Positions 620 to 30,384 of a stretch of DNA of 32,000 bases are shown piece by piece; position 1 is the stretch's first letter, and each line of letters begins with the position of its first letter. Position numbers and translations under genes: made by a program. Location of the stretch: NCBI GenBank assembly GCA_023136205.1, contig JAGLRQ010000042.1:1-32000 (forward strand). Reading direction: 5' to 3'. The notes below the pieces were generated by a model. The model had not been told where the DNA came from, searched no databases, and saw nothing but the letters and a program-made list of their open reading frames with translations. The DNA comes from Candidatus Auribacterota bacterium. GTDB taxonomy: Bacteria; Auribacterota; UBA6266.

Positions 620-2404
620 ATGATGAAATTCAGAAAAAGAAACATGGTTATTATAGTAATGTTTTCTTTTCTTATAATCACCATTATGCTGGCGTTCACT
701 TCTTATTCTTCTTCAAAAAGGCGAGCCCTTGACACCTATAGCCAACAGCTTCTCCTCCTGTCAAGCCAGATGGCTAACAGTATTCAACAGTTTGTTAACA
801 CCAGAGCAATGGCAGTAAACCTTATATCAAATGTAATTCATCCCGATAACAAATTAAACATAGCCGGCAACTTGAAATACCTCTATGATATTTACGGCGG
901 TTTTACAGTGGTAGTTTTCTGTGACCCGGAAGGGAAAATTACAGGGTGCTATCCTGATAAAGCATTCCCCGGCAATACATACATTAGAAACATCGCGGAA
1001 CCAGAGGTGGTTCGAAAAATACTTACAGCTCAAAAAAATAAAAAACTGGTAATAACCGATGGCTTGAGTATCCAACCCAGCCAATTCGCGCCGCTTATTA
1101 TCGCGCCGGCATTCAGCAAAAACAAAACAACTGCTCCCGTATTAGAAGGTACTATTATTGCCGTGATTTCCCTTGAAAAAATAAAAAGCGAATATATTAA
1201 TCAGGTAGCGCCTGGAAAATCGGGACATTCCTGGCTCTGGGACAGCAAAGGGGCAGAACTAGCGGGCGAATACAGTGCCAATAAAGGCATAAATTTCTTC
1301 GAGATTGAAAGAGGCCGCAATGATCCGTCCCTTACCTCTGCCATATCCAACATGAAAAACGGCATGCATGGGACAATGGAATACTGGTGGAAGGATCCGG
1401 ATAAAGATACTCTGATAAAAAAGATAGGAGCACACTGCCCCGTAGATATATGGGGATTAAAATGGACTGCTGGTGTCAGCACTTACCGGTCGGAAATAAC
1501 GCGCACGGTTCGAAAAAATTTCAGGCATACTCTTGGCATGATAGCTGCAACTATACTGGTTATAACCGGGGGGCTGAGTTGTGTCTTCTACATTGAAAGA
1601 CAGAGGATGGGAGCCGCTGAAAATGTAAGAATCATAAAAACCCTTGAAGAAAAAGTATCCGAAAGAACATCAAAACTGGAAAAACTCAATAAAGAACTCA
1701 CCATAATGAACGAGGTAAAAAATAATTTTCTTTCCATGGTATCGCATGAATTAAGGACACCGTTGACCACCATTCAGGGTTACTTAACTTTTATTTTAAG
1801 CGGAAAAGCGGGGAATGTTTCCGATGTTCAGGAGAAAAGTTTAAAAATCGCCGACTCTCAGGTTATGCGCCTGGACGAAATGATTTCAGAGCTTCTCGAT
1901 GTCACAAGAATTGAATCAGGGAGCATAAACCTTGAATACGAACTCGTCAATATGAAGGGGCTGGTTGATTCATGCATCGAATGGCTGGCTCCCATATACG
2001 GCAAAAAGGCAATAGCGGTTGAAAACAAAATGGAAGACAATGAAAAATCATTTGCCCAGGTTGACCGGAAAAAAATGAGCAGGGTATTTATCAACCTTAT
2101 TTCAAATGCCGTTAAGTTTACATCTAAAAACGGCAAAATAGAAGTTTCCAAGACAGAGGCCAAGGAATCTTTTATCTTTTGCGTAAGCGACAACGGCATC
2201 GGAATACCGGGATCACATATGGATAAAGTATTTGATAAGTTTTATCAGGTTGACAGCAGTACCACAAGAAAGTACAAGGGAAGCGGACTCGGCCTTCTAA
2301 TCGCGAAAGAGATTGTCGAGCTTCACGGCGGAAAAATATGGGCCGAGAGTGAAGAAGGCACAGGTTCTAAATTCTTCTTCACCGTTCCCAAACCCGTAAC
2401 GTAA
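620..2404 (+). CDS. Sensor histidine kinase with a large extracytoplasmic (Cache-like) domain
   Basis: An N-terminal TM segment is followed by ~270 aa between two TM segments and then a coiled coil. The H-box is SHELRTPL and the HATPase boxes are NLISNAVKFT, DNGIGIP and GSGLGL. No response regulator gene is adjacent. Confidence 0.85.
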   Translation: MMKFRKRNMVIIVMFSFLIITIMLAFTSYSSSKRRALDTYSQQLLLLSSQMANSIQQFVNTRAMAVNLISNVIHPDNKLNIAGNLKYLYDIYGGFTVVVFCDPEGKITGCYPDKAFPGNTYIRNIAEPEVVRKILTAQKNKKLVITDGLSIQPSQFAPLIIAPAFSKNKTTAPVLEGTIIAVISLEKIKSEYINQVAPGKSGHSWLWDSKGAELAGEYSANKGINFFEIERGRNDPSLTSAISNMKNGMHGTMEYWWKDPDKDTLIKKIGAHCPVDIWGLKWTAGVSTYRSEITRTVRKNFRHTLGMIAATILVITGGLSCVFYIERQRMGAAENVRIIKTLEEKVSERTSKLEKLNKELTIMNEVKNNFLSMVSHELRTPLTTIQGYLTFILSGKAGNVSDVQEKSLKIADSQVMRLDEMISELLDVTRIESGSINLEYELVNMKGLVDSCIEWLAPIYGKKAIAVENKMEDNEKSFAQVDRKKMSRVFINLISNAVKFTSKNGKIEVSKTEAKESFIFCVSDNGIGIPGSHMDKVFDKFYQVDSSTTRKYKGSGLGLLIAKEIVELHGGKIWAESEEGTGSKFFFTVPKPVT

Positions 2405-8276: not shown

Positions 8277-10028
8277 ATGAAAATTAAAGTCGCGTATTTA
8301 TCAGGTTTTTGCATGGGGGTAAGAAGAGCCGTAAACATGGTTTATTCCCTGGCAAAAACTAACGCTGGAAAAAAAATATATACTTACGGCCCTCTGATTC
8401 ACAACCCCAAGGTACTTGAAAATCTTGATAAAAAAGGAATATCCAGCATCGGAGCTCCGGAAGAAGCAGACAAAAACAGTATTATAGTAATAAGGGCCCA
8501 CGGAGTACCGCCGCAGGTAGGGAAGGATTTAGCTGCCAGCGGCGCGGAAATATGTAATGCGACATGCCCTGATGTAATGAAGGTTCAAGGGCTTATCAAA
8601 AAATACGCGGGGAAAGATTACCTGGTGGTCATTGTAGGTGACAAGGGACACGCCGAAGTAACAGGGCTCATGGGTTTTTCTAACGGCAAAGGAATCGTAA
8701 TAAGCAGTGTTGAACAAATATCAAATATCCCCGCAGGAAAAAGCGGTATTGCCGTACTGGCTCAAACAACCCAGGACACTAAGCTATACAACGATATCAC
8801 AGCAAAAATCCTGGTAAAATTCCCGGATGCAAAAATATTCAATACTATCTGTAAATCTACATTAAAAAGGCAGAAGGAAACCACCAGGCTGGCAAAAGAG
8901 GTTAACGCTATGATTGTTCTCGGCGGAAAAAACAGCGCCAACACCCGGCGCCTCTTTCATATATGTAAAAACTTGTGCGCTGATACTTTTTATGTAGAAA
9001 AGGCCCGGGACCTGGATATGGATAAAATTCTAAAATATAAAAAAATCGGGATTACAGCCGGGGCTTCGACCCCTAACTGGCAGATAAAAGAACTCGTCAC
9101 TGCACTTAAAAAAAGTACTCATAAAAAACGTTTTAAAATCCTGGAAAAGATTGATGCTCTTATCTATTTTATTGTCAGGACAAACATTTTTATAGCCATA
9201 GGCGCCGGTGTTTTGTCCTATATGGCTACAAAATTTTTAAAACTTCAGAACCCTTCATTGCTGTACCCGATAATAGCGGGCTTATATGTGTTTTCCATGC
9301 ATACATTCAACAAGCTTTTTGATAAAACCCTTGGAGAACTTGAAGACTCGACAAGAATAGCTTTTTTTGATTCACATCATGAAGAGTTTAAAATACTATC
9401 AATAACCGCAATGGCATGCGCGATAATTGCTTCATTGCTGCTGGGGTTTCCGGCTTTCTTAATAACGCTCATTGCTTCGGTTGCCGGAATTTCTTACAGC
9501 ACAAAGTTTTTCCCAAAAAACTGGCCCATAAGAAGATTAAAGGACATACAGATGTCTAAAGATTTATTCGTCAGCCTGGCCTGGACATCGGTCACTGTAT
9601 TTCTCCCGCTTCTCGGATATAAGGGAGTATCTCCGCACCCGATACCGCTGTTTCTTATTATATTTACTTTCCTTTATATTTTCATGCTTGTTTTTATAAG
9701 ATGTTTAACTTACGACCTCCTGGAAATCCATGCCGACAGGATGGTTGGAAGAGAATCGCTGGTCGTGTGCAAAGGAAAATCATTTACAAAAAGGACTATG
9801 GTATATCTTACAACCATAACAGCTATAATGGTGTTCGCCGCGGCGGCCTATAATTTAATACCGGGTTTCGGGTACTTTCTGCCGCTGCTTTCTCTTTATT
9901 CACTGCTGTACCTGGCGCTTTATCACAAAAGGCATTTCTCGCAGGAAATTACGTTTGACCTGATGGTCGATGGAAAATTTATAATAGGCGGAATCATAAT
10001 CTATCTCTGGACATCATTTGCCGGATAA
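8277..10028 (+). CDS. ispH: 4-hydroxy-3-methylbut-2-enyl diphosphate reductase (IspH/LytB) fused to a C-terminal polytopic UbiA-like membrane domain
   Basis: The N-terminal ~285 aa carry IspH hallmarks (GFCMGVRRAV, IHNPKV, RAHGVPP, ATCPDV, GHAEV, AQTTQ, NTICKST, GGKNSANTRRL, GITAGASTP). The C-terminal ~295 aa have about 8 TM helices and the motif YDLLEIHADRMVGRESLVV, which aligns with the second Asp-rich motif of UbiA prenyltransferases. Confidence 0.85.
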   Translation: MKIKVAYLSGFCMGVRRAVNMVYSLAKTNAGKKIYTYGPLIHNPKVLENLDKKGISSIGAPEEADKNSIIVIRAHGVPPQVGKDLAASGAEICNATCPDVMKVQGLIKKYAGKDYLVVIVGDKGHAEVTGLMGFSNGKGIVISSVEQISNIPAGKSGIAVLAQTTQDTKLYNDITAKILVKFPDAKIFNTICKSTLKRQKETTRLAKEVNAMIVLGGKNSANTRRLFHICKNLCADTFYVEKARDLDMDKILKYKKIGITAGASTPNWQIKELVTALKKSTHKKRFKILEKIDALIYFIVRTNIFIAIGAGVLSYMATKFLKLQNPSLLYPIIAGLYVFSMHTFNKLFDKTLGELEDSTRIAFFDSHHEEFKILSITAMACAIIASLLLGFPAFLITLIASVAGISYSTKFFPKNWPIRRLKDIQMSKDLFVSLAWTSVTVFLPLLGYKGVSPHPIPLFLIIFTFLYIFMLVFIRCLTYDLLEIHADRMVGRESLVVCKGKSFTKRTMVYLTTITAIMVFAAAAYNLIPGFGYFLPLLSLYSLLYLALYHKRHFSQEITFDLMVDGKFIIGGIIIYLWTSFAG

Positions 10029-13507: not shown

Positions 13508-13864
13508 ATGAAAAGAATTATTGTTACGCTTGTCATTTCGGTACTCTTTTTGAACATTTGTGCACCAGCAGCATTAGCTGAAAACGAATCTGTTCCTGGT
13601 AAAATGGCACGTAAACTTGGGCGTGGTGTATGCAACGTGGCTCTGGCCTGGGGCGAAATCCCCAAGAACATTGTGACCGCGTGTGAAGAGATCAATCCTT
13701 ATGCCGGATGGTTTATCGGCCTTATAAAAGGTGTTTTTATGACCATCGGAAGAACGCTTGCGGGAGCATGGGACATTGCGACTTTTCTTTTTCCGCTTCC
13801 AAGCGATTATGAACCGGTAATGGAACCGGAGTTCGTGTTTGAAAGTATGTCTTATTTAGAATAA
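13508..13864 (+). CDS. Small secreted protein, paralog 1 of 3 (resembles exosortase-associated family TIGR04073)
   Basis: A GGAGG Shine-Dalgarno and a signal peptide ending ALA-E are present. It shares the motifs KLGRGxxNxxxxWGEIPKN and GRTxxGxWDxxTFxFPxPSDYEPxxEPEF. Confidence 0.8.
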   Translation: MKRIIVTLVISVLFLNICAPAALAENESVPGKMARKLGRGVCNVALAWGEIPKNIVTACEEINPYAGWFIGLIKGVFMTIGRTLAGAWDIATFLFPLPSDYEPVMEPEFVFESMSYLE

Positions 13865-13890
13865 TAACCATAAACAAGGGGGAGTAACTG

Positions 13891-14217
13891 ATGAAAAAAG
13901 CGTTTATAACAATGCTGGTACTGGCTCTTTTTCTTGGTATGTCTATTCCGGCATCCGCTGAGCCAAGCACCAACAATGCCGGGAGAAAACTATGCCGCGG
14001 CATAGCAAATGTTGCCACGGGCTGGGTTGAAATCATACGCCAGCCTTATGAAGAATCCATAGCATCTAATCCGCTAAGAGGCCTCACCGTCGGCCTATTC
14101 AAGGGTCTTGTTATGGCAGTGGCAAGAACAGGTTCCGGAGCTTATGATATAGTAACATTTCCAGTACCTTTTCCTAACGACTATGATTCTTTAGTGCAAC
14201 CTGAATTTATACTTTAA
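13891..14217 (+). CDS. Small secreted protein, paralog 2 of 3 (TIGR04073-like)
   Basis: A GGGGGAG Shine-Dalgarno and a signal peptide ending ASA-E are present. It carries KLCRGIANVATGWVEI and ARTGSGAYDIVTFPVPFPNDYDSLVQPEF. Confidence 0.8.
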   Translation: MKKAFITMLVLALFLGMSIPASAEPSTNNAGRKLCRGIANVATGWVEIIRQPYEESIASNPLRGLTVGLFKGLVMAVARTGSGAYDIVTFPVPFPNDYDSLVQPEFIL

Positions 14218-14247
14218 CAGGCAGCACCCAGAAAGGAGGCAATCCTA

Positions 14248-14580
14248 ATGATTCAATGTTCAAAAGTAGCAATTGTGATTCTTGTAGTAACGGCTATTCT
14301 TAGTTCAACAACAACGGCATCGGCAGAATTATATCAAGACATAACTCACAAGCTTTTTAGGGGCATTGCCAATATCCTCACAGGTTGGATAGAAATTCCT
14401 AAAAACATGTATGATGATATGGTTGAGGTAAGCCCGTGGTACGGATGGCTTACCGGTCTTTTTAAAGGACTTGGGTACGGAATTGCTAGAACCGGTACCG
14501 GTGTGTGGGACACAGTAACGTTCCTTTTTCCGATTCCGTCAGACTATGAACCTGTTTGGGAACCGGAATTCGTGTTCTAA
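14248..14580 (+). CDS. Small secreted protein, paralog 3 of 3 (TIGR04073-like)
   Basis: An AGGAGG Shine-Dalgarno and a signal peptide ending ASA-E are present. It carries KLFRGIANILTGWIEIPKN and ARTGTGVWDTVTFLFPIPSDYEPVWEPEF. Confidence 0.8.
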   Translation: MIQCSKVAIVILVVTAILSSTTTASAELYQDITHKLFRGIANILTGWIEIPKNMYDDMVEVSPWYGWLTGLFKGLGYGIARTGTGVWDTVTFLFPIPSDYEPVWEPEFVF

Positions 14581-14672: not shown

Positions 14673-14897
14673 ATGGAAGAAAAAGTAAAAGATGTACTGA
14701 ATAATGAAATACGGCCCTATCTCCAATCGCATGGGGGGGACGTAGAATTTGTATCCGCGGACGAAGAGGGTAATGTAAGCGTAAAATTAAAAGGGGCATG
14801 CGCGGGTTGTCCCGGCGCCATGATGACATTAAAAAATCTTGTGGAACAGGCTTTAAAAGAAAAGCTTCCGGAAATAAAATCCGTGAAAGCTGTCTAA
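14673..14897 (+). CDS. NifU C-terminal-domain (Nfu-type) Fe-S cluster protein
   Basis: The 74-aa product has IRPYLQSHGGDVEFV and the CxxC motif GACAGCPGAMMTL, typical of the NifU C-terminal domain. Confidence 0.85.
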   Translation: MEEKVKDVLNNEIRPYLQSHGGDVEFVSADEEGNVSVKLKGACAGCPGAMMTLKNLVEQALKEKLPEIKSVKAV

Positions 14898-14898
14898 A

Positions 14899-16086
14899 AT
14901 GCAAAAAGAACACGAGCAAAAAGACAGATTTATCGATAAGTTTATAAGAAATATTGATAAAATCGACAGGATTGATGTTGAAAGGCAGTTTGTAAACCTC
15001 ACCCGGGAAAAAGGTTTCCTTGAATCAATTTTCAACAACCTGAATGAAGGTATTTCTGTGCTTGGAAACACCGGTTTGGTTATTTATCTTAATCCCGAAG
15101 CAAAAAGGGTACTTGGAATATTTTCTGAAGATTACAGAGGAAAACATTTCTCGGAAATAATAAAAGACGAAAACCTGGTATCATCAATACCGGTCATACC
15201 AAAAGATTTTCACAGGGTAATTGATAAAGAAGTAAAAGTAAATTTTCCCAGAAATATTTTGTTAAACACTACTATTATACCTTTTAAACAGGGTACATCT
15301 CAGTTAATGGTTATTGTTTTAAAGGATATAACCGCTAAAAAAACACACGAGCGGAATGAAGAACAGTCCAAGATCCTTGAAACTTTCTCTCAACTGGCAG
15401 CCGGTATGGCCCATGAAATAGGCAACCCCTTAGATTCTTTAAACATTCATCTGCAGTTAATATCCCGCGAGCTGAAAAAAGAGAACAAAAGAAAAACAAG
15501 CGTGGCCAATAATCTTGCTATCTGTCAGGATGAATTAAAAAGGCTTGACGAAATTGTAAACCGTTTTCTATCAGCCCTGAGGTCTTCAAAGAGAGAGCTG
15601 GAAGAAAAAAACCTGAACAAGATAATATTATATACAGTCAAGCTCATGCAGCCCGAATTTAACGCCAGGAAAATATCCCTTACTGTTAAGCTCAGCAACG
15701 CTCTGTCCGAAACTCTTCTGGATGAGGCGCAAATAAAACAGCTGATCATAAATATCCTGAAAAACTCTATTCAGGCCATTTATCATGAAAAGGGTAATAT
15801 TACTGTCTCAACCTCACAGGAGCCTTATTACATACTGATGGAAATAACCGATAACGGATGCGGAATATCCAAAAGCGTTAAAAATAAAATATTTGAACCG
15901 TATTATTCAACAAAAGAATCCGGCTCAGGGCTTGGCCTTCTTATCGCCTCAAGAATCGTTACAGAACACGGGGGGACAATTGAGCTTGAAAGTACTGAAG
16001 GCCTGGGAACAACGGTAAAAGTCAGAATACCAATAAGGATTAAGAAAATAAGGTTGCTGCCGGAGGGAAAGAGAAGAAGGCTTTAG
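14899..16086 (+). CDS. PAS-domain sensor histidine kinase (NtrB/AtoS-like, cytoplasmic)
   Basis: It starts 1 nt after the NifU stop. It has a PAS-like region (LNEGISVLGNTGLVIYLNPEA), the H-box AHEIGNPL and the HATPase boxes DNGCGIS and GSGLGL. There are no TM segments. Confidence 0.85.
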   Translation: MQKEHEQKDRFIDKFIRNIDKIDRIDVERQFVNLTREKGFLESIFNNLNEGISVLGNTGLVIYLNPEAKRVLGIFSEDYRGKHFSEIIKDENLVSSIPVIPKDFHRVIDKEVKVNFPRNILLNTTIIPFKQGTSQLMVIVLKDITAKKTHERNEEQSKILETFSQLAAGMAHEIGNPLDSLNIHLQLISRELKKENKRKTSVANNLAICQDELKRLDEIVNRFLSALRSSKRELEEKNLNKIILYTVKLMQPEFNARKISLTVKLSNALSETLLDEAQIKQLIINILKNSIQAIYHEKGNITVSTSQEPYYILMEITDNGCGISKSVKNKIFEPYYSTKESGSGLGLLIASRIVTEHGGTIELESTEGLGTTVKVRIPIRIKKIRLLPEGKRRRL

Positions 16087-16107: not shown

Positions 16108-17409
16108 ATGGATAAAAAAACTATATTGATTGTTGAAGATGAAGTAAATATCCGCAAGGGGCTTGCGGCAACTTTGTCAGATAATTATAGGGTTCTTTCC
16201 GCTGAAAACGGAGAGGAAGCCTATGAAATCTTCAAAAAGCAGCACCCTGACCTTGTCTTAACTGACATAAGAATGCCGAAGATGGGGGGATTGTCTCTCC
16301 TGGATAAAATTAAACTGGAAAATAAAAAAATTCCGGTAATTTTAATAACCGCCTATGGAACCATAGACAGCGCGGTCGATTCCATGAAAAGGGGAGCCGC
16401 TGATTATATAACAAAACCTGTTAACCTCGATAAACTTGAAGCCGTTATTAAAAAAGCACTAACCCATAAAAAAACTCCTTCGAAAACTAATCCGGAATCA
16501 TCAATAATCGGTACGTCACCATTAATGAAAACCCTGTACAGTCAGATAACTAAGGTTGCGCTTTCCAACGCTACAATTCTTATAACAGGAGAAAGCGGAA
16601 CAGGAAAAGAAGTCCTTGCGCGGGATATCCACGACTTAAGCATGCGGCCGGGAAAACTTGTTCCTGTACATTGTTCATCCCTCCCCGAAACACTTCTTGA
16701 AAGCGAACTTTTCGGATATGAGAAAGGCGCCTTCACGGGCGCGGCTTCAAGAAAACTGGGGCGCTTTGATATGGCGGCAAAAGGAACTCTTTTCTTAGAC
16801 GAAATAAGTGAAATATCTCCACTTATTCAGATAAAGCTGCTAAGGGTTCTTCACGATAAAACTTTTGAAATGGTAGGGGGAACAGAAACTCGTAAAGCTG
16901 ATATAAGAATCATAGCTGCAACAAATAAAAACCTTGAGCCGCTGATAAAGAGCGGTCAATTCAGGGAGGACCTTTATTACAGGCTTAATGTTATCCATTT
17001 TCATTTGCCGCCTTTAAGACAGAGAAAAACGGACATCCCATTATTTGTAAACCGTTTTATAGAAGAACTTGGAAAATCATCGGGTAAATTGATAGAAATC
17101 ATATCAGAAGACGCGTTAAAGATACTTGTGAATTATTCTTGGCCCGGGAATATCAGGCAGCTTAAAAATGTTCTCGAAAGGATGATTTTGCTTACGTCTT
17201 CAAGGATATTAGATATTAAAGACATACCGCAGGAAATTACGGCCGTGGAAGGCGTCGCTTCCAACGCTGGAACAACAATTAAAAATGCCGAAAAGGACCT
17301 GATTATAAAGGAGCTTGAGAATACAGGCGGCAATAAGACAGAAACCGCAAAACGCCTGGGAATAAGCCGTAAGACCTTATACAGGAAGATGGAAGAGTTC
17401 GGTTTGTAA
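16108..17409 (+). CDS. Sigma-54-dependent response regulator (NtrC-family bacterial enhancer-binding protein)
   Basis: It has a receiver domain (DLVLTDIRMP), an AAA+ domain with Walker A GESGTGKE, an intact sigma-54 contact loop GAFTGA, and a C-terminal Fis-type HTH (AKRLGISRKTLYRKM). Confidence 0.9.
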   Translation: MDKKTILIVEDEVNIRKGLAATLSDNYRVLSAENGEEAYEIFKKQHPDLVLTDIRMPKMGGLSLLDKIKLENKKIPVILITAYGTIDSAVDSMKRGAADYITKPVNLDKLEAVIKKALTHKKTPSKTNPESSIIGTSPLMKTLYSQITKVALSNATILITGESGTGKEVLARDIHDLSMRPGKLVPVHCSSLPETLLESELFGYEKGAFTGAASRKLGRFDMAAKGTLFLDEISEISPLIQIKLLRVLHDKTFEMVGGTETRKADIRIIAATNKNLEPLIKSGQFREDLYYRLNVIHFHLPPLRQRKTDIPLFVNRFIEELGKSSGKLIEIISEDALKILVNYSWPGNIRQLKNVLERMILLTSSRILDIKDIPQEITAVEGVASNAGTTIKNAEKDLIIKELENTGGNKTETAKRLGISRKTLYRKMEEFGL

Positions 17410-17476
17410 CCCTTTGATACACCCTCATTGTAGCCTTATGACACATAGAAAACTCATTTAAAGAATTAACTTATTC

Positions 17477-17492
17477 TTGCAACTACCTGCAA
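17477..17492. promoter_or_regulatory. Inverted repeat TTGCA-N6-TGCAA, candidate enhancer-binding-protein site
   Basis: This perfect 5-N6-5 inverted repeat lies ~45 bp upstream of the -24 element. A related TTGCAAT occurs at 17521. Confidence 0.3.
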
Positions 17493-17530
17493 AACAATGT
17501 GTTACAATAATATTATATAATTGCAATACT

Positions 17531-17547
17531 TTGGCACATATATTGCT
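17531..17547 (+). promoter_or_regulatory. Sigma-54 (-24/-12) promoter of dnaK-groES-groEL
   Basis: TTGGCACATATATTGCT matches TGGCAC-N5-TTGC exactly, with GG and GC separated by 10 nt. It lies 51 nt upstream of the dnaK ATG and 122 nt downstream of the activator gene. Confidence 0.75.
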
Positions 17548-17597
17548 CTTAATAATTGTAATTAAAATACAGCAAACATAATTTAGGAGGTGCTGAT

Positions 17598-19535
17598 ATG
17601 TCCAAAATAATCGGTATAGATTTAGGAACTACAAATTCATGTGTTGCTTTCATGGAGGGCGGTAAACCTTCGGTTATTCCCAATGCTGAAGGTGACCGGA
17701 CAACTCCGTCAGTTGTCGCCTTTACAAAAGGCGGTGAAAAACTGGTTGGGAAAACCGCAAAAAGACAGGCTATTACAAATCCTGCCAACACGGTTTTTTC
17801 AATTAAGAGATTTATGGGAAGGAAATTCGGCGAGGTAGGCTCGGAAATCAAAGAAGTTCCTTTTAAGGTAGGTGCCAGCGCGAACAACGATGCGGCCGTT
17901 GAAATTGGGAAAAAGCAATACACACCGCCGGAAATATCCGCGATGATTCTTCAGAAACTTAAAACCGACGCGGAAGCATACATCGGGGACAAAGTAACAA
18001 AAGCCGTAATAACGGTACCTGCTTACTTTAACGACAGCCAGAGACAGGCTACGAAGGACGCGGGTAAAATCGCCGGGCTTGAAGTAGAAAGAATAATAAA
18101 CGAACCAACAGCCGCGTCTTTAGCATACGGGCTTGATAAGAAAAAGGATGAAAAAATTGCGGTCTATGATTTAGGCGGCGGTACATTTGATATATCCATT
18201 CTTGATATCGGAGAAGGTGTTTTTGAAGTAAAGGCAACAAACGGGAACACACACCTTGGCGGAGATGATTTTGACCAGAGAATTATCGACTGGCTTCTTG
18301 AAGTATTCAAAAAAGATAACGGTATAGACCTGAAAAAAGATCCTATGGCTTTACAGAGGCTTAAAGAAGCGGCTGAAAAAGCAAAGATAGAACTTTCGTC
18401 TTCAACTGAAACTGAAATCAATTTACCGTTTATTACAGCCGATTCCACCGGGCCGAAACACCTTGTTGTAAAGCTTTCCAGGTCTAAACTGGAACAGCTT
18501 GTTGACGATTTAATACAGTCAACCGTTGAACCATGTAAAAAAGCTCTTGCTGACGCAAGCCTTAAGGCAGGGGAAATAGATGAGGTGATTCTTGTCGGCG
18601 GAATGACAAGAATGCCGAAGGTCATTGAAGTGGTAAAAAAATTCTTTGGCAAGGAACCACATAAGGGAGTAAACCCTGATGAGGTAGTTGCTACAGGAGC
18701 TGCTATCCAGGCAGGAGTGATACAGGGAGATGTACAGGATGTGGTCTTGCTTGACGTAACTCCTCTTTCCCTGGGAATAGAAACACTAGGAGGAGTTTTT
18801 ACAAAACTTATAGAAAGAAATACCACTATTCCCGTGGATAAAAGCGAAATATTCTCCACGGCTGCCGACAGTCAGCCAAGTGTGGATATACATGTCCTGC
18901 AGGGGGAACGCCCTATGGCAACAGGTAACAAAACCATAGGAAAATTCCAGCTTGTCGGAATACCGCCTGCGCCAAGGGGAGTTCCTCAAATCGAAGTAAA
19001 ATTTAGCATAGACAGAAATGGTATTATCAATGTTTCAGCAAAAGATCTTGGAACCGGAAAAGAACAGAATATTACCATTAAGGCTTCCAGCGGCCTTTCC
19101 GAAAAAGACATAGACCGCATGGTTCAAGATGCTGAAGCGCATGCTTCGGAAGATACAAAACTGAAAGAAAAAGTAGAAGCAAAAAACAGCGCGGAGAATG
19201 CTGTATACCAAGCTGAAAAAACACTGAAAGAACACAAGGATAAAATCCCTGATGATAAGAAAGCACCGGTAGAAAGCGCTATCAAAGATGTAAAAGATGC
19301 AATTGCCTCGGATGATACTGAAAAAATAAAATCCACGACGGAAGCGCTGATGAATGCTTTCCACGCGATTTCTCAGGAGATATACAAGAAAGCCACACAG
19401 GATCAGCAAGCGCAGCAGCAGCCGGGACAACAGCCTGATACAGGCCCTGAAGATAAACCAAAAAGCTCCGATGAAAATGTAGTAGATGCTGATTTTAAAG
19501 TTGTTGATGATGATAAAAATAATAAACAAAAGTAA
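17598..19535 (+). CDS. dnaK: Molecular chaperone DnaK (Hsp70)
   Basis: An AGGAGG Shine-Dalgarno is present. Canonical Hsp70 signatures are [25 protein letters not shown] and [13 protein letters not shown], with an acidic C-terminal tail. Confidence 0.97.
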
Positions 19536-19553: not shown

Positions 19554-21523
<1,970 letters not shown>

Positions 21524-21557
21524 TCTGCCACCAGCAGCAAAATAAAAAAACCAAAAA

Positions 21558-21588
21558 GGCTCCCTGAAGTTCAGGGGGCCTTTTTTAT
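21558..21588 (+). terminator. Intrinsic terminator of the dnaK-groESL operon
   Basis: GGCTCCCTG pairs with CAGGGGGCC (9 bp, one G-U pair) across loop AAGTT. TTTTTTATT follows. Confidence 0.8.
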
Positions 21589-21603
21589 TAAGTTTCGATA
21601 TTG

Positions 21604-21660
21604 TCCCAAATTTTGGGATTACCCCGCCGTTCGCCAAAATTTCCCATGGAAATTTTGGCG
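21604..21660. promoter_or_regulatory. Two palindromes sharing a CCAAA(A)TTT core upstream of ktrB
   Basis: TCCCAAA-T-TTTGGGA lies at 21604-21618. CGCCAAAATTTCC-CAT-GGAAATTTTGGCG lies at 21632-21660, with a perfect 13-bp stem. No U-tract follows either one. Confidence 0.4.
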
Positions 21661-21707
21661 GCAAAAAAGAGTGGAAATAGCCGGTTGCAACCTTTATAAT
21701 TTCACAA

Positions 21708-28399: not shown

Positions 28400-29428
28400 T
28401 TAATCACAGATAATAACTCTATTTCTACCAGTGCTTTTCGCTTTATATAATGCCTCATCGGACTTTTTTATTAACGTATCTAACTCTTTTTTAACATCTG
28501 TCTCAATCACTCCTTTTGCAACGCCAATACTAATCGTCACCGGTAAATCTCCCTTGGTTCCTGTCTCTACCAGCTTACATATCTTTTCAGCTATTTTCTT
28601 TAAAAAACCTACGTCAACAGGGGCAAGAAAAATTAAAAATTCTTCCCCGCCATATCTTCCAATTACATCGGAACTCCTTATATTTCTTTTAATAAGGCCG
28701 GCAACCTGCTGCAGAACTTTATCACCTTTTTGATGGCCGTAGGTATCGTTGATCTCTTTAAAGTGATCAATATCCATCATCATAATCCCAATATTATACC
28801 TGTGCCTTTTTGCCAGGGTTGATAAAAGGTTAATAGCATTGAAAAGCCCCCTTCTATTGAGGACATTGGTCAGAGTATCAATAGTAGTTTGCATTGTTAA
28901 CAACTTGCTGTCATGCCATAATCTTTTGATGGTTTTTCCAAGAAGCTCCAATTCCGAAGTTACCATACCGTATTTCTTTAAAGCATCAATAACCTTTTGG
29001 ATGTGATTTTCATAGTCGTCTTTAGGCTTGCTTTCCTCCGGCAATGTTCTCATAAAGTGAAATAACAATACAAACGCGGGATGCAGTAAATAAAACTCTA
29101 AGCTGTATGCTAAAAGGAAACTATTCGTATGGCCAACCATATTTTCACATTCTTTTAATAAAAGATTGCTTTCGGCATCTATTGTTTCAAGCTCATCTTT
29201 GACCTTAACCGGATCATCAAAAACCTGAGGAATCATGCCTTTTTCCGCGAAGTACAACATTTCCCTCCAGTATTCAACAGGAAATTTCTCTCCTAATGAC
29301 ATCTCCTTCCAAAAATCTCTTAGATTGTTATCTTTTTCAACCTTTGATAATTTTTCATAAATTTTATAGGATTTTCGGTCTATTGATAAACACAGGCTAA
29401 TTATATCCAGTAAAAGATTCTCTGCCAT
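28400..29428 (-). CDS. Diguanylate cyclase (GGEEF) with an N-terminal ~170-aa helical domain of unknown function
   Basis: The C-terminal GGDEF domain has DIDHFKEINDTYGH and an active-site RYGGEEF, preceded by an RSSD I-site. The N-terminal domain is helical with ferritin-like spacing (FWKEMSLGEKFPVEYW) but lacks obvious metal ligands. Confidence 0.85.
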   Translation of the reverse strand: MAENLLLDIISLCLSIDRKSYKIYEKLSKVEKDNNLRDFWKEMSLGEKFPVEYWREMLYFAEKGMIPQVFDDPVKVKDELETIDAESNLLLKECENMVGHTNSFLLAYSLEFYLLHPAFVLLFHFMRTLPEESKPKDDYENHIQKVIDALKKYGMVTSELELLGKTIKRLWHDSKLLTMQTTIDTLTNVLNRRGLFNAINLLSTLAKRHRYNIGIMMMDIDHFKEINDTYGHQKGDKVLQQVAGLIKRNIRSSDVIGRYGGEEFLIFLAPVDVGFLKKIAEKICKLVETGTKGDLPVTISIGVAKGVIETDVKKELDTLIKKSDEALYKAKSTGRNRVIICD

Positions 29429-29454
29429 ATCAACCTCCTCTTTAATAACAATTA

Positions 29455-30384
29455 TTATCCAATGAGGTCTTCTCTATAAATTGATGTTCTGTTTCTTCCG
29501 TTAATCTTTGAATAATACAACGCTTTATCTGACTTTTTCCTTAAATCTTCTCCGTCCATTATGCTCTGCTCAGGATAAGATGAGATTCCCAGGCTAATTG
29601 TCACCTGTACCTTTTTCCCATCATAAATAAATTCTTTTTCTGCCAACTCTTTTCTAAGCCGCTCCACATATACATAAGCTTCTTCCGCGGTAGTTTCCGG
29701 GGCAAGGATAATATATTCATCGCCGGAGGGCCTGAAAATCACATCATTACACCTCTTCCTGTCAAGCATATGCTTCGCTATTCCGATTAGAACACAATCC
29801 CCCGCCGGATGGCCATATAAATCATTAACCCTCTTAAAAAGATCTACATCTATCCCAATACAGCTTAAAGAGCGGCTATACCTTTTGGAACGTTCCAACT
29901 CTTCATTTAAATATTTGTTAAAGTATCTCAGATTATATAACCCGGTAAGGCCATCACGAATTGCCATTTCTGCAAGCTCAGCATTTTTCTCTCTTAATTG
30001 ATCATGTAATTGTTTTAGCCTCAGCATTGACTTAACCCTGGCAATAACTTCCTGAGAAGATACCGGCTTAACAAGAAAATCGTCTCCCCCCTCTTCAAAG
30101 CCTTTAAGCTTGGATTCCTGGTCTCCCTTCGCCGTAAGGAAAATTATGGGTACATAATTATCGCTGGACGAGTGTTTCCTAATTTGCCTGCAGACTTCAA
30201 ATCCATCAATCTCAGGCATCATAATATCAAGCAATACGACATCCGGCGGGTTATTATGATACTGATTCATCGCTTCTTCACCATTTTCAGCCACGTTAAC
30301 CTCGTAACCTTCTGTTTCCAGAAGAACCCTCAAAAGGTGTACTATATCAAGCTCGTCATCGACTATAAGTATTTTCTCTTTCAT
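29455..30384 (-). CDS. Response regulator receiver fused to a GGDEF domain with variant active-site motif SGDEY
   Basis: The receiver domain shows ILIVDDE and DVVLLDIMMPEIDG. A coiled-coil linker leads to a GGDEF domain with DVDLFKRVNDLYGH, an RCND I-site and FRPSGDEYIIL instead of GG(D/E)EF. Confidence 0.85.
   Translation of the reverse strand: MKEKILIVDDELDIVHLLRVLLETEGYEVNVAENGEEAMNQYHNNPPDVVLLDIMMPEIDGFEVCRQIRKHSSSDNYVPIIFLTAKGDQESKLKGFEEGGDDFLVKPVSSQEVIARVKSMLRLKQLHDQLREKNAELAEMAIRDGLTGLYNLRYFNKYLNEELERSKRYSRSLSCIGIDVDLFKRVNDLYGHPAGDCVLIGIAKHMLDRKRCNDVIFRPSGDEYIILAPETTAEEAYVYVERLRKELAEKEFIYDGKKVQVTISLGISSYPEQSIMDGEDLRKKSDKALYYSKINGRNRTSIYREDLIG

What the first reader, a model, noticed from the sequence alone, without database searches (positions are those of the whole stretch)
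17410..17597. Main chaperone operon dnaK-groES-groEL behind a perfect sigma-54 promoter, next to a dedicated NtrC-type two-component system
TTGGCACATATATTGCT (17531-17547) is an exact TGGCAC-N5-TTGC match. A ten-position match like this is expected far less than once by chance in a window this size. It sits 51 nt upstream of dnaK in a 188-bp intergenic region.

The genes immediately upstream on the same strand are a cytoplasmic PAS histidine kinase and a sigma-54 activator with an intact GAFTGA loop. A perfect inverted repeat, TTGCA-N6-TGCAA at 17477-17492, is a candidate activator site.

I could not find a CIRCE element (TTAGCACTC-N9-GAGTGCTAA) before dnaK. Only 18 nt separate dnaK from groES, so groESL has no room for its own control region.

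Chaperone operons are normally controlled by sigma-32, HrcA-CIRCE, HspR-HAIR or CtsR. The closest precedent I recall is HsfA/HsfB control of lonD in Myxococcus xanthus. Enhancer-dependent control of the core Hsp70/Hsp60 operon by a phosphorelay would be an unusual heat-shock or proteostasis circuit.
Basis: partly seen in the sequence, partly recalled or inferred. Interest (0 to 1): 0.72.

Follow-up and report, generated by a model that had tools for sequence, protein, structure and literature searches.

The report
Sigma-54 promoter driving dnaK-groESL operon
In an uncultured Auribacterota bacterium the main protein-folding operon (dnaK-groES-groEL) most likely sits behind a conserved sigma-54 promoter switched on by the two-component activator encoded next door, which is a new variant of a control scheme already reported in Flavobacterium and Chlamydia.

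Summary
TGGCAC-N5-TTGC lies at 17532-17546. It is the only exact match in 32 kb and ends 51 nt before the dnaK start codon. A soluble PAS histidine kinase and an NtrC-type activator with an intact GAFTGA loop lie directly upstream.

The element is almost certainly functional. Four other Auribacterota lineages (activator 66-93% identical) keep TTGGCAyAyATmTTGC 48-63 nt before dnaK, while the rest of the spacer has diverged. An Omnitrophota-like contig (activator 51%, DnaK 66% identical) also has kinase-activator-dnaK, with TGGCAT-N5-TTGA 49 nt before the start codon.

Better enhancer candidates are two conserved 17-bp dyads, TGTAnC-N5-GnnACA, at 17405-17421 and 17429-17445. They centre about -145 and -121 from the predicted start at 17558. 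A third conserved block lies at 17481-17505.

There is no CIRCE, no Rfam hit and no RNA thermometer. A strong terminator follows groEL.

The claim of rarity is overstated. Sigma-54 promoters before groESL, dnaK, grpE-dnaJ, clpB, htpG and lon are TSS-mapped in Flavobacterium, predicted in Planctomycetota, and shown for hrcA-grpE in Chlamydia.

What is new is the adjacent dedicated two-component activator and the fused dnaK-groESL operon. I could not check whether rpoN is present.

The parts
14673..14897 (+). NifU-like gene (74 aa, CxxC). It abuts the kinase gene and is probably the first gene of a nifU-kinase-activator operon.
   Evidence: PF01106 NifU, E = 5.8e-29. Its stop codon lies 1 nt before the kinase ATG. 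It holds the same position in all Auribacterota relatives but is absent from the Omnitrophota-like locus L144.
14899..16086 (+). Soluble PAS histidine kinase (395 aa), the presumed sensor.
   Evidence: PAS, HisKA and HATPase_c domains. No transmembrane segment. The best NCBIfam match is AtoS at 245 bits, far below the 646-bit cut-off. Orthologues are 60-98% identical in the syntenic loci.
16108..17409 (+). NtrC-type enhancer-binding response regulator (433 aa): REC, AAA+ sigma-54 interaction domain with GAFTGA, and a Fis-type HTH.
   Evidence: PF00072, PF00158 (E = 1e-64), PF25601 and PF02954. The GAFTGA loop is visible. Orthologues are 66-69% identical, carry GSFTGA and have a conserved HTH. 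The closest solved structures are Aquifex NtrC-family proteins 4l4u and 1ny5, and ZraR 1ojl.
17405..17421 (.). Distal candidate enhancer dyad TGTAACCCTTTGATACA. It overlaps the activator's stop codon and centres about -145 from the predicted start.
   Evidence: The motif GTAnCyyTnTGnyAC matches without mismatch only here and at 17430-17444 in 32 kb. An equivalent site lies 126-132 nt upstream of the TGGCA in every Auribacterota lineage.
17429..17445 (.). Proximal candidate enhancer dyad TGTAGCCTTATGACACA, centred about -121 from the predicted start.
   Evidence: It lies at a fixed distance (102-104 nt) upstream of the TGGCA in four Auribacterota lineages. The core TGT..C.TT.TG is invariant in all six aligned sequences, including the Omnitrophota-like L144.
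17477..17492 (.). It is present but not conserved as a repeat.
   Evidence: Found. It is lost in L142 (TTGTAACTGCCTGAAA) and has a different form in L082, L083 and L093.
17481..17505 (.). Conserved middle block AAC-N4-TG-N5-CAA-N4-TTA, at about -77 to -53 from the predicted start. Its role is unknown. It could be an IHF-like bending site (CAA-N4-TTR core) or a further activator contact.
   Evidence: Columns AAC, TG, AA and TT are invariant across all six lineages in alignment A3. The IHF reading is my inference from the known consensus WATCAANNNNTTR and was not tested.
17531..17547 (+). Sigma-54 (-24/-12) promoter TTGGCACATATATTGCT, with GG at 17533-17534 and GC at 17545-17546.
   Evidence: It is conserved as TTGGCAyAyATmTTGC in L082, L083/L085, L093, L090 and L142. 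In L144/L145 it reads TTGGCATAAAAATTGA. It ends 48-63 nt before the dnaK ATG in every case.
17558..17597 (+). Predicted transcription start (about 17558, if C17546 is -12) and a 40-nt leader with the Shine-Dalgarno AGGAGG at 17585-17590.
   Evidence: The start position is inferred from the standard -24/-12 geometry. The leader shows no significant structure (z = -0.05, and about 0 in relatives). There is no Rfam hit.
17598..19535 (+). dnaK (645 aa).
   Evidence: PF00012, E = 1e-269. NF001413 scores 1041 bits and TIGR02350 998 bits, both above their cut-offs.
19554..19844 (+). groES (96 aa), 18 nt after dnaK.
   Evidence: PF00166 Cpn10; coordinates.
19862..21523 (+). groEL (553 aa, with a GGM C-terminal tail).
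   Evidence: TIGR02348 scores 844 bits, above its cut-off; PF00118.
21553..21585 (+). Intrinsic terminator that closes the dnaK-groES-groEL unit.
   Evidence: A 15-bp stem with 7 G-C pairs followed by a T run. No terminator-like site lies between the activator gene and dnaK. An equivalent hairpin follows groEL in L082.

Best explanation
dnaK-groES-groEL is one transcription unit. It starts at a sigma-54 (-24/-12) promoter at 17531-17547, with a predicted start near 17558, and ends at the terminator at 21553-21585.

The promoter is most likely activated by the NtrC-type response regulator encoded immediately upstream (16108-17409). In the proposed mechanism:
1. The adjacent soluble PAS histidine kinase (14899-16086) phosphorylates the regulator.
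2. The regulator binds as dimers to two conserved 17-bp dyads (17405-17421 and 17429-17445, about -145 and -121).
3. It assembles into the AAA+ ring, possibly helped by a bend at the conserved block 17481-17505.
4. ATP hydrolysis then remodels the closed sigma-54 holoenzyme complex into an open complex.

**Shown:**
- The sequence elements and their coordinates.
- The domain make-up of the proteins.
- Conservation of the promoter, the dyads and the gene order across five Auribacterota lineages and one Omnitrophota-like lineage.

**Inferred:**
- That sigma-54 is encoded in the genome.
- That this particular activator binds these dyads.
- The position of the transcription start.
- The signal. I favour a cytoplasmic proteotoxic or redox cue sensed by the PAS kinase. 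Basal expression could come from read-through of the nifU-kinase-activator transcript, because no terminator separates it from dnaK.
For: - **Promoter match.** There is one exact TGGCAC-N5-TTGC in 32 kb, and it is intergenic and correctly oriented.
- **Footprint within Auribacterota.** Relatives have kinases 60-63% and activators 66-69% identical. They keep TTGGCAyAyATATTGC while the surrounding spacer diverges. A relative with a 93%-identical activator keeps TGGCATATATCTTGC.
- **Footprint across phyla.** L144/L145 have an activator 51%, kinase 35% and DnaK 66% identical to the window. Their DnaK is 83% identical to Candidatus Omnitrophota DnaK. They carry kinase-activator-199 bp-dnaK, with TGGCAT-N5-TTGA ending 49 nt before the ATG.
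- **Fixed position.** The motif-to-ATG distance is 48-51 nt in five of six lineages and 63 nt in L142.
- **Enhancer candidates.** The dyad motif occurs twice, without mismatch, only in this spacer. The proximal copy sits 102-104 nt upstream of the TGGCA in all Auribacterota lineages. Its core is invariant even in L144.
- **Intact activator.** It has REC, a sigma-54 interaction domain with GAFTGA (GSFTGA in relatives) and a conserved Fis-type HTH.
- **No rival control element found.** There is no CIRCE, no Rfam family, no leader structure and no good sigma-70 match in the spacer.
- **Operon boundaries.** A strong terminator follows groEL, and none precedes dnaK.
- **Sigma-54 use in the phylum.** Auribacterota assemblies hold further activator paralogues (P0168, P0187).
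- **Precedent.** Sigma-54 promoters lie at mapped transcription starts of the same chaperone genes in Flavobacterium (PMC9723704). CtcC induces hrcA-grpE in Chlamydia (PMC7482065).
Against: - rpoN was not found in the window. I could not search for it in the relatives' genomes.
- No transcription data exist for these uncultured organisms.
- Spacing between the two dyads differs between lineages: 24 bp centre to centre in the window and 28 bp in the others. That is unusual for strictly phased cooperative sites.
- The Omnitrophota-like promoter has TTGA instead of TTGC at -12.
- A metagenome scan for the dyad plus promoter combination found no further regulon members. The 48 hits are unrelated loci, about the number I estimated for chance (my own rough estimate), and the scan did not return the JGI contig behind L082.
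- groESL is essential in most bacteria. Exclusive dependence on an activator would therefore be risky, so a second weak sigma-70 promoter or read-through probably contributes.
- The -10-like TGTTACAAT (17500-17508) overlaps a conserved block. A sigma-70 start there cannot be excluded.
Confidence: 0.72

Rival explanations
1. The chaperone operon has dual control, as in Chlamydia. A constitutive sigma-70-type promoter in the same spacer, or read-through from the nifU-kinase-activator transcript, supplies most of the expression. The sigma-54 promoter only adds a conditional boost, or holds bound sigma-54 holoenzyme as a brake.
For: - No terminator lies between the activator gene and dnaK.
- An extended -10-like TGTTACAAT lies at 17500-17508 within a partly conserved block.
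- Chlamydia hrcA has tandem sigma-66 and sigma-54 promoters (PMC7482065, PMC8762339).
- Chaperonins are essential in most bacteria (general knowledge).
Against: - The -10-like hexamer is not kept. It reads TGTGAGAAT in L142, TATTAT in L082, TATCTA in L083 and TATTAC in L093.
- No -35 element sits at a workable spacing. The only scan hit in the spacer scores 9 of 12.
- The best-conserved spacer elements are the -24/-12 motif and the dyads.
Confidence: 0.3
2. The sigma-54 promoter is real, but a different enhancer-binding protein encoded elsewhere activates it. The adjacent two-component system regulates other targets, and the gene adjacency has no regulatory meaning.
For: - Auribacterota encode several activator paralogues.
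- Kinase homologues at about 40% identity in Verrucomicrobia pair with an activator next to a glycosyltransferase, not dnaK.
- Activator homologues at 50-51% identity (P0140, P0199) are not next to dnaK.
Against: - The kinase-activator-dnaK adjacency survives from Auribacterota to an Omnitrophota-like lineage, while all other neighbours change.
- The conserved dyads begin at the activator's own stop codon.
- The HTH recognition region is conserved along with the dyads.
Confidence: 0.1
3. The conserved TTGGCA...TTGC block is not a sigma-54 promoter. It is instead an operator for a repressor, or part of a sigma-70-family promoter, and the resemblance to -24/-12 is coincidental.
For: - A single exact match in one window is only modestly significant; 7 of 100 shuffles had one.
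- rpoN was not verified.
- The distant lineage has TTGA at -12.
Against: - The invariant positions are the TTGGCA and TTG of the sigma-54 consensus, at the exact canonical spacing. Most of the five spacer positions vary.
- An intact sigma-54 activator gene always lies directly upstream.
- The block is not palindromic, as most operators are.
- The 48-63 nt distance to the ATG suits a promoter with a short leader.
Confidence: 0.05

Closest known systems
Sigma-54 chaperone and protease regulon of Flavobacterium psychrophilum, and more widely Bacteroidota and Planctomycetota (PMC9723704, PMC12316311)
   Same: Core cytoplasmic chaperone genes (groES-groEL, dnaK, grpE-dnaJ, htpG, clpB, lon) lie behind -24/-12 promoters. 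In Flavobacterium these sit at mapped transcription starts. Sigma-54 appears there in place of the usual sigma-32 or HrcA schemes.
   Different: - In those phyla the responsible activator has not been named in the papers I read. PMC9723704 only notes three candidate activators. The chaperone genes are scattered.
- Here a two-component activator is encoded directly upstream with conserved candidate binding sites, and dnaK is fused with groES-groEL in one operon.
- The phylum is different (Auribacterota, also Omnitrophota-like).
- No transcript data exist here.
Chlamydia trachomatis CtcB/CtcC (AtoS/AtoC-like) sigma-54 system and its target hrcA-grpE(-dnaK) (PMC7482065, PMC8762339)
   Same: - It belongs to the PVC superphylum, where PMC12057145 also places Auribacterota and Omnitrophota.
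- A two-component kinase and an NtrC-type regulator activate a sigma-54 promoter in front of an Hsp70-system operon.
- AtoS and AtoC are also the best (sub-threshold) NCBIfam matches of the window proteins.
   Different: - CtcC lacks a DNA-binding domain (PMC7482065). The window activator has a Fis-type HTH and candidate enhancer sites.
- In Chlamydia the sigma-54 promoter is tandem with a sigma-66 promoter and a CIRCE operator. No CIRCE is present here.
- Chlamydial groESL is not in that operon.
- I did not test orthology with CtcB/CtcC.
NtrB/NtrC at glnAp2 and the Aquifex NtrC1/NtrC4 and ZraS/ZraR systems (textbook enhancer-dependent two-component circuits)
   Same: - The same protein architecture: REC, AAA+ with GAFTGA, and a Fis-type HTH, with a cognate kinase.
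- Two dyad sites more than 100 bp upstream of a -24/-12 promoter.
- The closest solved structures are 4l4u, 1ny5, 3dzd and 1ojl. For the kinase they are ZraS 9jfj and ThkA 3a0r.
   Different: - All NCBIfam equivalog scores are below their cut-offs, so this is not AtoC, NtrC, ZraR or PrsR.
- The target is the cytoplasmic Hsp70/Hsp60 operon, not nitrogen, metal or envelope genes.
Bradyrhizobium japonicum groESL3, RpoN- and NifA-dependent (PMC4842269; Fischer et al. 1993, from my own knowledge)
   Same: A groES-groEL operon is transcribed from a -24/-12 promoter under an enhancer-binding protein.
   Different: groESL3 is one specialised copy among several. It is co-regulated with nitrogen fixation, and NifA is not a two-component regulator. 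Here the operon includes dnaK and looks like the housekeeping copy, although I did not verify that.
Myxococcus xanthus HsfA/HsfB control of lonD
   Same: A two-component NtrC-type activator and sigma-54 drive a heat-shock gene.
   Different: The target is a Lon protease paralogue, not the Hsp70/Hsp60 genes.
HrcA-CIRCE and sigma-32 heat-shock regulons (the usual controls of dnaK and groESL)
   Same: The same target genes.
   Different: No CIRCE is present in the window. The conserved spacer elements are a -24/-12 promoter and upstream dyads, not an operator overlapping a sigma-70 promoter.

Membership tests
Sigma-54-dependent (-24/-12) promoter | GG and GC dinucleotides exactly 10 bp apart within TGGCAC-N5-TTGC(W), on the coding strand upstream of a gene. 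| tested here: met
   TGGCACATATATTGCT is at 17532-17547, 51 nt before dnaK.
Sigma-54-dependent (-24/-12) promoter | Conservation of the element in orthologous upstream regions. | tested here: met
   Kept in five Auribacterota lineages. A TTGA variant at -12 sits at the same position in an Omnitrophota-like lineage.
Sigma-54-dependent (-24/-12) promoter | rpoN is encoded in the same genome. | not testable with these tools
   rpoN is not in the window. The whole genomes of the relatives could not be scanned. Indirect support only: intact activators, and activator paralogues in Auribacterota.
Sigma-54-dependent (-24/-12) promoter | A transcription start about 12 nt downstream of the GC, dependent on an ATP-hydrolysing activator. 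| not testable with these tools
   The organism is uncultured and no transcript data were available.
[quoted passage not shown] | An N-terminal receiver domain with the phospho-acceptor Asp. | tested here: met
   PF00072, E = 9.7e-31. The LTDIRMP motif, with D53, is invariant in orthologues.
[quoted passage not shown] | A central AAA+ sigma-54 interaction domain with the GAFTGA loop. | tested here: met
   PF00158, E = 1e-64. The window has GAFTGA and relatives have GSFTGA, with the F and T kept.
[quoted passage not shown] | A C-terminal Fis-type HTH and upstream dyad binding sites. | tested here: inconclusive
   HTH_8 is present, E = 1.8e-15. Two conserved dyads are good candidate sites, but binding was not tested.
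Named equivalogs: AtoS/AtoC, NtrB/NtrC, ZraS/ZraR, PrsK/PrsR | An NCBIfam score above the curated cut-off. | tested here: not met
   Scores against cut-offs: AtoC 456 vs 714; NtrC 414 vs 559; ZraR 407 vs 760; PrsR 366 vs 503; AtoS 245 vs 646.
HrcA-CIRCE regulon | A CIRCE inverted repeat (TTAGCACTC-N9-GAGTGCTAA) upstream of dnaK or groES. | tested here: not met
   No match in the whole window with up to 3 mismatches.
Bona fide DnaK and GroEL (not HscA or a variant chaperonin) | Equivalog-level scores. | tested here: met
   DnaK: TIGR02350 scores 998 against a cut-off of 823, and the HscA models fall below their cut-offs. GroEL: TIGR02348 scores 844 against 582.
RNA thermometer or other leader RNA element | A structured leader that sequesters the Shine-Dalgarno sequence, or a match to an Rfam family. 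| tested here: not met
   z-scores are -0.05, 0.22 and -0.17 for three lineages. There is no Rfam hit.

The most novel reading that the evidence does not exclude
This kinase-activator pair is the master proteostasis (heat-shock) regulator of Auribacterota and Omnitrophota. It would be an ancestral PVC-type circuit, related to chlamydial CtcB/CtcC, that replaces sigma-32 and HrcA. In this reading the soluble PAS kinase senses protein-folding stress directly. It could do so by titration of DnaK or GroEL away from the kinase or activator, or through a redox or Fe-S signal linked to the co-transcribed NifU-like protein. It would also name the missing activator class for the sigma-54 chaperone regulons seen in Bacteroidota and Planctomycetota.
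Probability: 0.25. Interest if true: 0.72.

Novelty: new variant of a known kind. Interest (0 to 1): 0.5.

Why it matters
Heat-shock control is textbook material built on sigma-32, HrcA-CIRCE, HspR and CtsR. Sigma-54 control of the core chaperones has only recently surfaced, through transcription start maps in Flavobacterium and regulon predictions in Planctomycetota. The papers I read do not name the activator or the signal.

These loci place a candidate sensor kinase, activator, enhancer sites and promoter together in 3 kb next to dnaK. The arrangement is conserved across two candidate phyla.

That gives a compact system that can be rebuilt in E. coli: promoter fusion, activator, kinase and rpoN. 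With it one could ask what signal drives an enhancer-dependent chaperone response. One could also ask whether the chlamydial CtcB/CtcC system descends from the same circuit.

Outside that question, this is a regular NtrC-type circuit with an uncommon target.

Tried and rejected
- **Genome scan with the activator.** It was swamped by generic activators (best 48% identity). Only L064 had dnaK nearby. That locus has activator-receiver-dnaK without a canonical -24/-12 motif, so I did not use it.
- **Exact look-up of the window's activator.** It found no contig.
- **Kinase homologues at about 40% identity in Verrucomicrobia.** They are followed by a glycosyltransferase, not dnaK. The link to dnaK is therefore not a property of the wider kinase family.
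- **Activator homologues at 50-51% identity (P0140, P0199).** They are not next to dnaK either.
- **The one metagenome scan.** I used a combined dyad plus promoter pattern to look for further regulon members. It gave 48 hits, about the number I estimated for chance (my own rough estimate). None were from Auribacterota or next to chaperone genes. The scan did not return the JGI contig behind L082, so this negative result is weak.
Rejected because it is not conserved.
- **A sigma-70 promoter at TGTTACAAT.** Not conserved and without a -35 element. I kept it only as a minor rival.
- **RNA thermometer or riboswitch in the leader.** Rejected.
- **CIRCE.** Absent.
- **A sigma-32-like reading of the CCCTCAT between the two dyads (17423-17429).** Considered by eye only. 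It is poorly conserved in relatives, and I judged it unlikely.
- **rpoN.** A six-frame search for the RpoN box in all held loci found one only in an unrelated locus, L011. The Auribacterota paper does not mention sigma factors, and no supplementary files were held.
- **PrsK/PrsR (PEP-CTERM) identity.** Suggested by the neighbouring TIGR04073 genes, but rejected because scores are below the cut-offs and the kinase is soluble.
Full report
**1. What is in the window**

The 188-bp spacer 17410-17597 separates an NtrC-type response regulator gene (16108-17409) from dnaK (17598-19535). groES (19554-19844) follows after 18 nt and groEL (19862-21523) after a further 17 nt.

Domain searches confirm the following:
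- Bona fide DnaK, Cpn10 and GroEL.
- A kinase with PAS, HisKA and HATPase_c domains (14899-16086).
- A regulator with REC, Sigma54_activat, AAA_lid_14 and HTH_8 domains.

The regulator contains ELFGYEKGAFTGA. The kinase has no hydrophobic segment. A 74-aa NifU-like gene (14673-14897) abuts the kinase gene. A 15-bp-stem terminator follows groEL at 21553-21585, and no terminator-like site lies between the regulator gene and dnaK.

**2. The observation**

TTGGCACATATATTGCT is at 17531-17547. The exact TGGCAC-N5-TTGC occurs once in the window, against 0.07 expected. Allowing one mismatch adds only an intragenic hit on the other strand. A looser TGGC-N8-TGC scan finds no other intergenic site. On its own, one match is only modest evidence.

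**3. Relatives**

A search with the kinase found a 98% relative and a group at 60-61% identity, one of them labelled Candidatus Aureabacteria. Identity then drops sharply to about 40%. A search with the regulator added relatives at 93-100% identity, labelled Candidatus Auribacterota, then 66-68%, then 51% and below.

Contigs carrying these proteins show the same gene order: three TIGR04073 genes, nifU-like, kinase, regulator, dnaK, groES, groEL. Either clpB or trkH follows. One of these contigs is a 1.99-Mb contig.

In every lineage the spacer before dnaK holds the same element:
- L082 and L083/L085: TTGGCACACATATTGC.
- L093: TTGGCATACATATTGC.
- L142: TTGGCATATATCTTGC.

The flanking sequence has diverged, and mean column identity is 65-76%.

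A more distant pair of contigs, L144 and L145, has a regulator 51%, a kinase 35% and a DnaK 66% identical to the window. Its DnaK is 83% identical to Candidatus Omnitrophota DnaK. It again shows kinase-regulator-199 bp-dnaK, with TTTGGCATAAAAATTGAT. The motif ends 48-51 nt before the ATG in five of six lineages and 63 nt in L142.

By my rough estimate, a TGGCAy-N5-TTGm motif falling within a few bases of the same position by chance has a probability of about 4e-5 per lineage. This phylogenetic footprint is the main reason I accept the promoter.

**4. Enhancer candidates**

It is lost in the 93% relative (TTGTAACTGCCTGAAA) and in the 66-69% relatives.

Instead, a 15-nt motif, GTAwCyyTnTGwyAC, occurs twice in each spacer. 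With its flanking bases it forms the dyad TGTAnC-N5-GnnACA.
- The proximal copy starts 102-104 nt upstream of the TGGCA in all Auribacterota lineages. In the window it is at 17429-17445.
- The distal copy starts 126 nt upstream in the window (17405-17421, overlapping the regulator's stop codon) and 132 nt upstream in the others.

In the window the motif matches without mismatch only at these two places. The core TGT..C.TT.TG of the proximal site is invariant even in the Omnitrophota-like spacer.

If C17546 is -12, the start is about 17558 and the dyads centre near -121 and -145. That geometry resembles NtrC sites at glnAp2 (my own knowledge). The regulator's HTH region is conserved alongside.

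A third conserved block, AAC-N4-TG-N5-CAA-N4-TTA (17481-17505, about -77 to -53), is kept in all six lineages. Its CAA-N4-TTR core and its position would suit an IHF-like bending site. That is inference only.

**5. Other control elements excluded**

- No CIRCE.
- No Rfam family anywhere in the window.
- No significant leader structure in three lineages.
- No convincing sigma-70 promoter in the spacer.
- The extended -10-like TGTTACAAT is not conserved.

Read-through from the upstream operon is possible, because no terminator intervenes.

**6. Mechanism proposed**

The soluble PAS kinase senses a cytoplasmic signal and phosphorylates the regulator. The regulator binds the two dyads, oligomerises and uses ATP to open the sigma-54 holoenzyme complex at 17531-17547. 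Transcription runs through dnaK-groES-groEL to the terminator.

The elements, the domains and the conservation are shown. Sigma-54 presence, binding, the start site and the signal are inferred. I put this model at about 0.72.

The main refinement is dual control, with a basal sigma-70 or read-through contribution as in Chlamydia (about 0.3, and not exclusive of the main model). The alternatives that another activator is responsible, or that the motif is not a sigma-54 promoter, are unlikely (0.1 and 0.05).

**7. What I could not do**

rpoN is not in the window or in any Auribacterota locus I hold. Indirect support comes from the intact, conserved regulators and from further activator paralogues labelled Auribacterota.

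The single metagenome scan, for the dyad plus promoter pattern, gave 48 unrelated hits. It did not return the JGI contig behind L082. The size of the regulon therefore remains unknown.

**8. Comparison with what is known**

It is not:
- In Flavobacterium psychrophilum, -24/-12 promoters sit at mapped starts of groES-groEL, lon, dnaK, grpE-dnaJ, htpG and clpB (PMC9723704).
- A 2025 comparative study finds GroEL, GroES, GrpE, DnaJ, DnaK and IbpA enriched in predicted sigma-54 regulons of Bacteroidota and Planctomycetota (PMC12316311).
- In Chlamydia trachomatis, the hrcA-grpE operon has tandem sigma-66 and sigma-54 promoters. It is induced by the CtcC ATPase domain (PMC7482065, PMC8762339).
- Bradyrhizobium groESL3 is RpoN-dependent (PMC4842269).

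Auribacterota and Omnitrophota are counted within the PVC superphylum (PMC12057145). The window therefore fits an emerging pattern across PVC and Bacteroidota.

Three things differ here:
- A dedicated two-component activator is encoded directly upstream with conserved candidate sites. The Flavobacterium paper names no activator, and CtcC has no DNA-binding domain.
- dnaK is fused with groES-groEL in one operon.
- No CIRCE is present.

The proteins are not members of any named equivalog (AtoSC, NtrBC, ZraSR, PrsKR), because all scores fall below the cut-offs. The closest solved structures are Aquifex NtrC-family proteins and ZraR, and ZraS and ThkA for the kinase.

**9. Verdict**

I rate this a new variant of a known kind, with interest 0.5. 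The most novel reading still open is that this pair is the ancestral PVC-type master proteostasis regulator and senses folding stress directly. I give that about 0.25 probability and 0.72 interest if true.

Noticed in passing
window 13508-14580: Three tandem paralogous genes encode small secreted proteins of the exosortase-system-associated family TIGR04073 (108-118 aa, with C-terminal EPEFVF or QPEFIL). They lie just upstream of the nifU-kinase-activator genes. The trio is conserved in all Auribacterota relatives. No sigma-54 motif precedes them.
   Followed up: partly
window 14673-14897: A NifU-like Fe-S scaffold gene (CxxC at residues 43 and 46) is tightly coupled to the kinase gene in every Auribacterota lineage, but is absent from the Omnitrophota-like locus L144. 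This may hint at a redox or Fe-S input to the kinase, or at a DnaK-Nfu functional link.
   Followed up: partly
window 8277-10028: One 583-aa ORF combines an IspH/LytB domain (residues 3-277) with a UbiA-family prenyltransferase domain (332-552). The fusion is also called as a 585-aa gene in L081-L084.
   Followed up: no
L081-L083 14594-14720, compared with window 21524-21707: In the 66-69% clade, clpB follows groEL after a terminator, and I saw no -24/-12 motif in that spacer. In the window clade, trkH-trkA follow instead. clpB therefore does not appear to share the sigma-54 promoter type there.
   Followed up: partly
L144 4680-4695 (and L145): The Omnitrophota-like dnaK promoter has TTGA rather than TTGC at the -12 element. 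There dnaK is followed by an unknown 292-aa gene and a MoxR/DUF58/BatA cluster, not by groESL.
   Followed up: partly
L147 320-1968: An ECF-type sigma-70 gene is followed directly by a short 362-aa protein that hits only the Sigma54_DBD family. They sit in a locus with a HAMP kinase and an activator 51% identical to the window's. My RpoN-box search did not match this protein.
   Followed up: no
L101, L102, L107, L109, L136 and others: Several unrelated metagenome contigs carry a perfect palindrome, GTAAC-N5-GTTAC, 80-110 nt upstream of TGGCAy-N5-TTGC. Three of them (L102, L109, L136) also carry an activator gene. The GTAwC-N5-GwwAC type of enhancer site may therefore be common among NtrC-family activators.
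   Followed up: no
L064 1860-2490: A Deltaproteobacteria MAG contig has activator, a stand-alone receiver gene, then dnaK. The spacer shows only non-canonical GG/GC motifs: TGGCAC-N3-TTGC and GGGCAC-N5-TTGT.
   Followed up: partly
window 28400-30384 (- strand) and 620-2404 (+): Two adjacent GGDEF proteins are present, one with a receiver domain. A separate dCache histidine kinase lies at the other end of the window. The window is rich in signalling genes.
   Followed up: no
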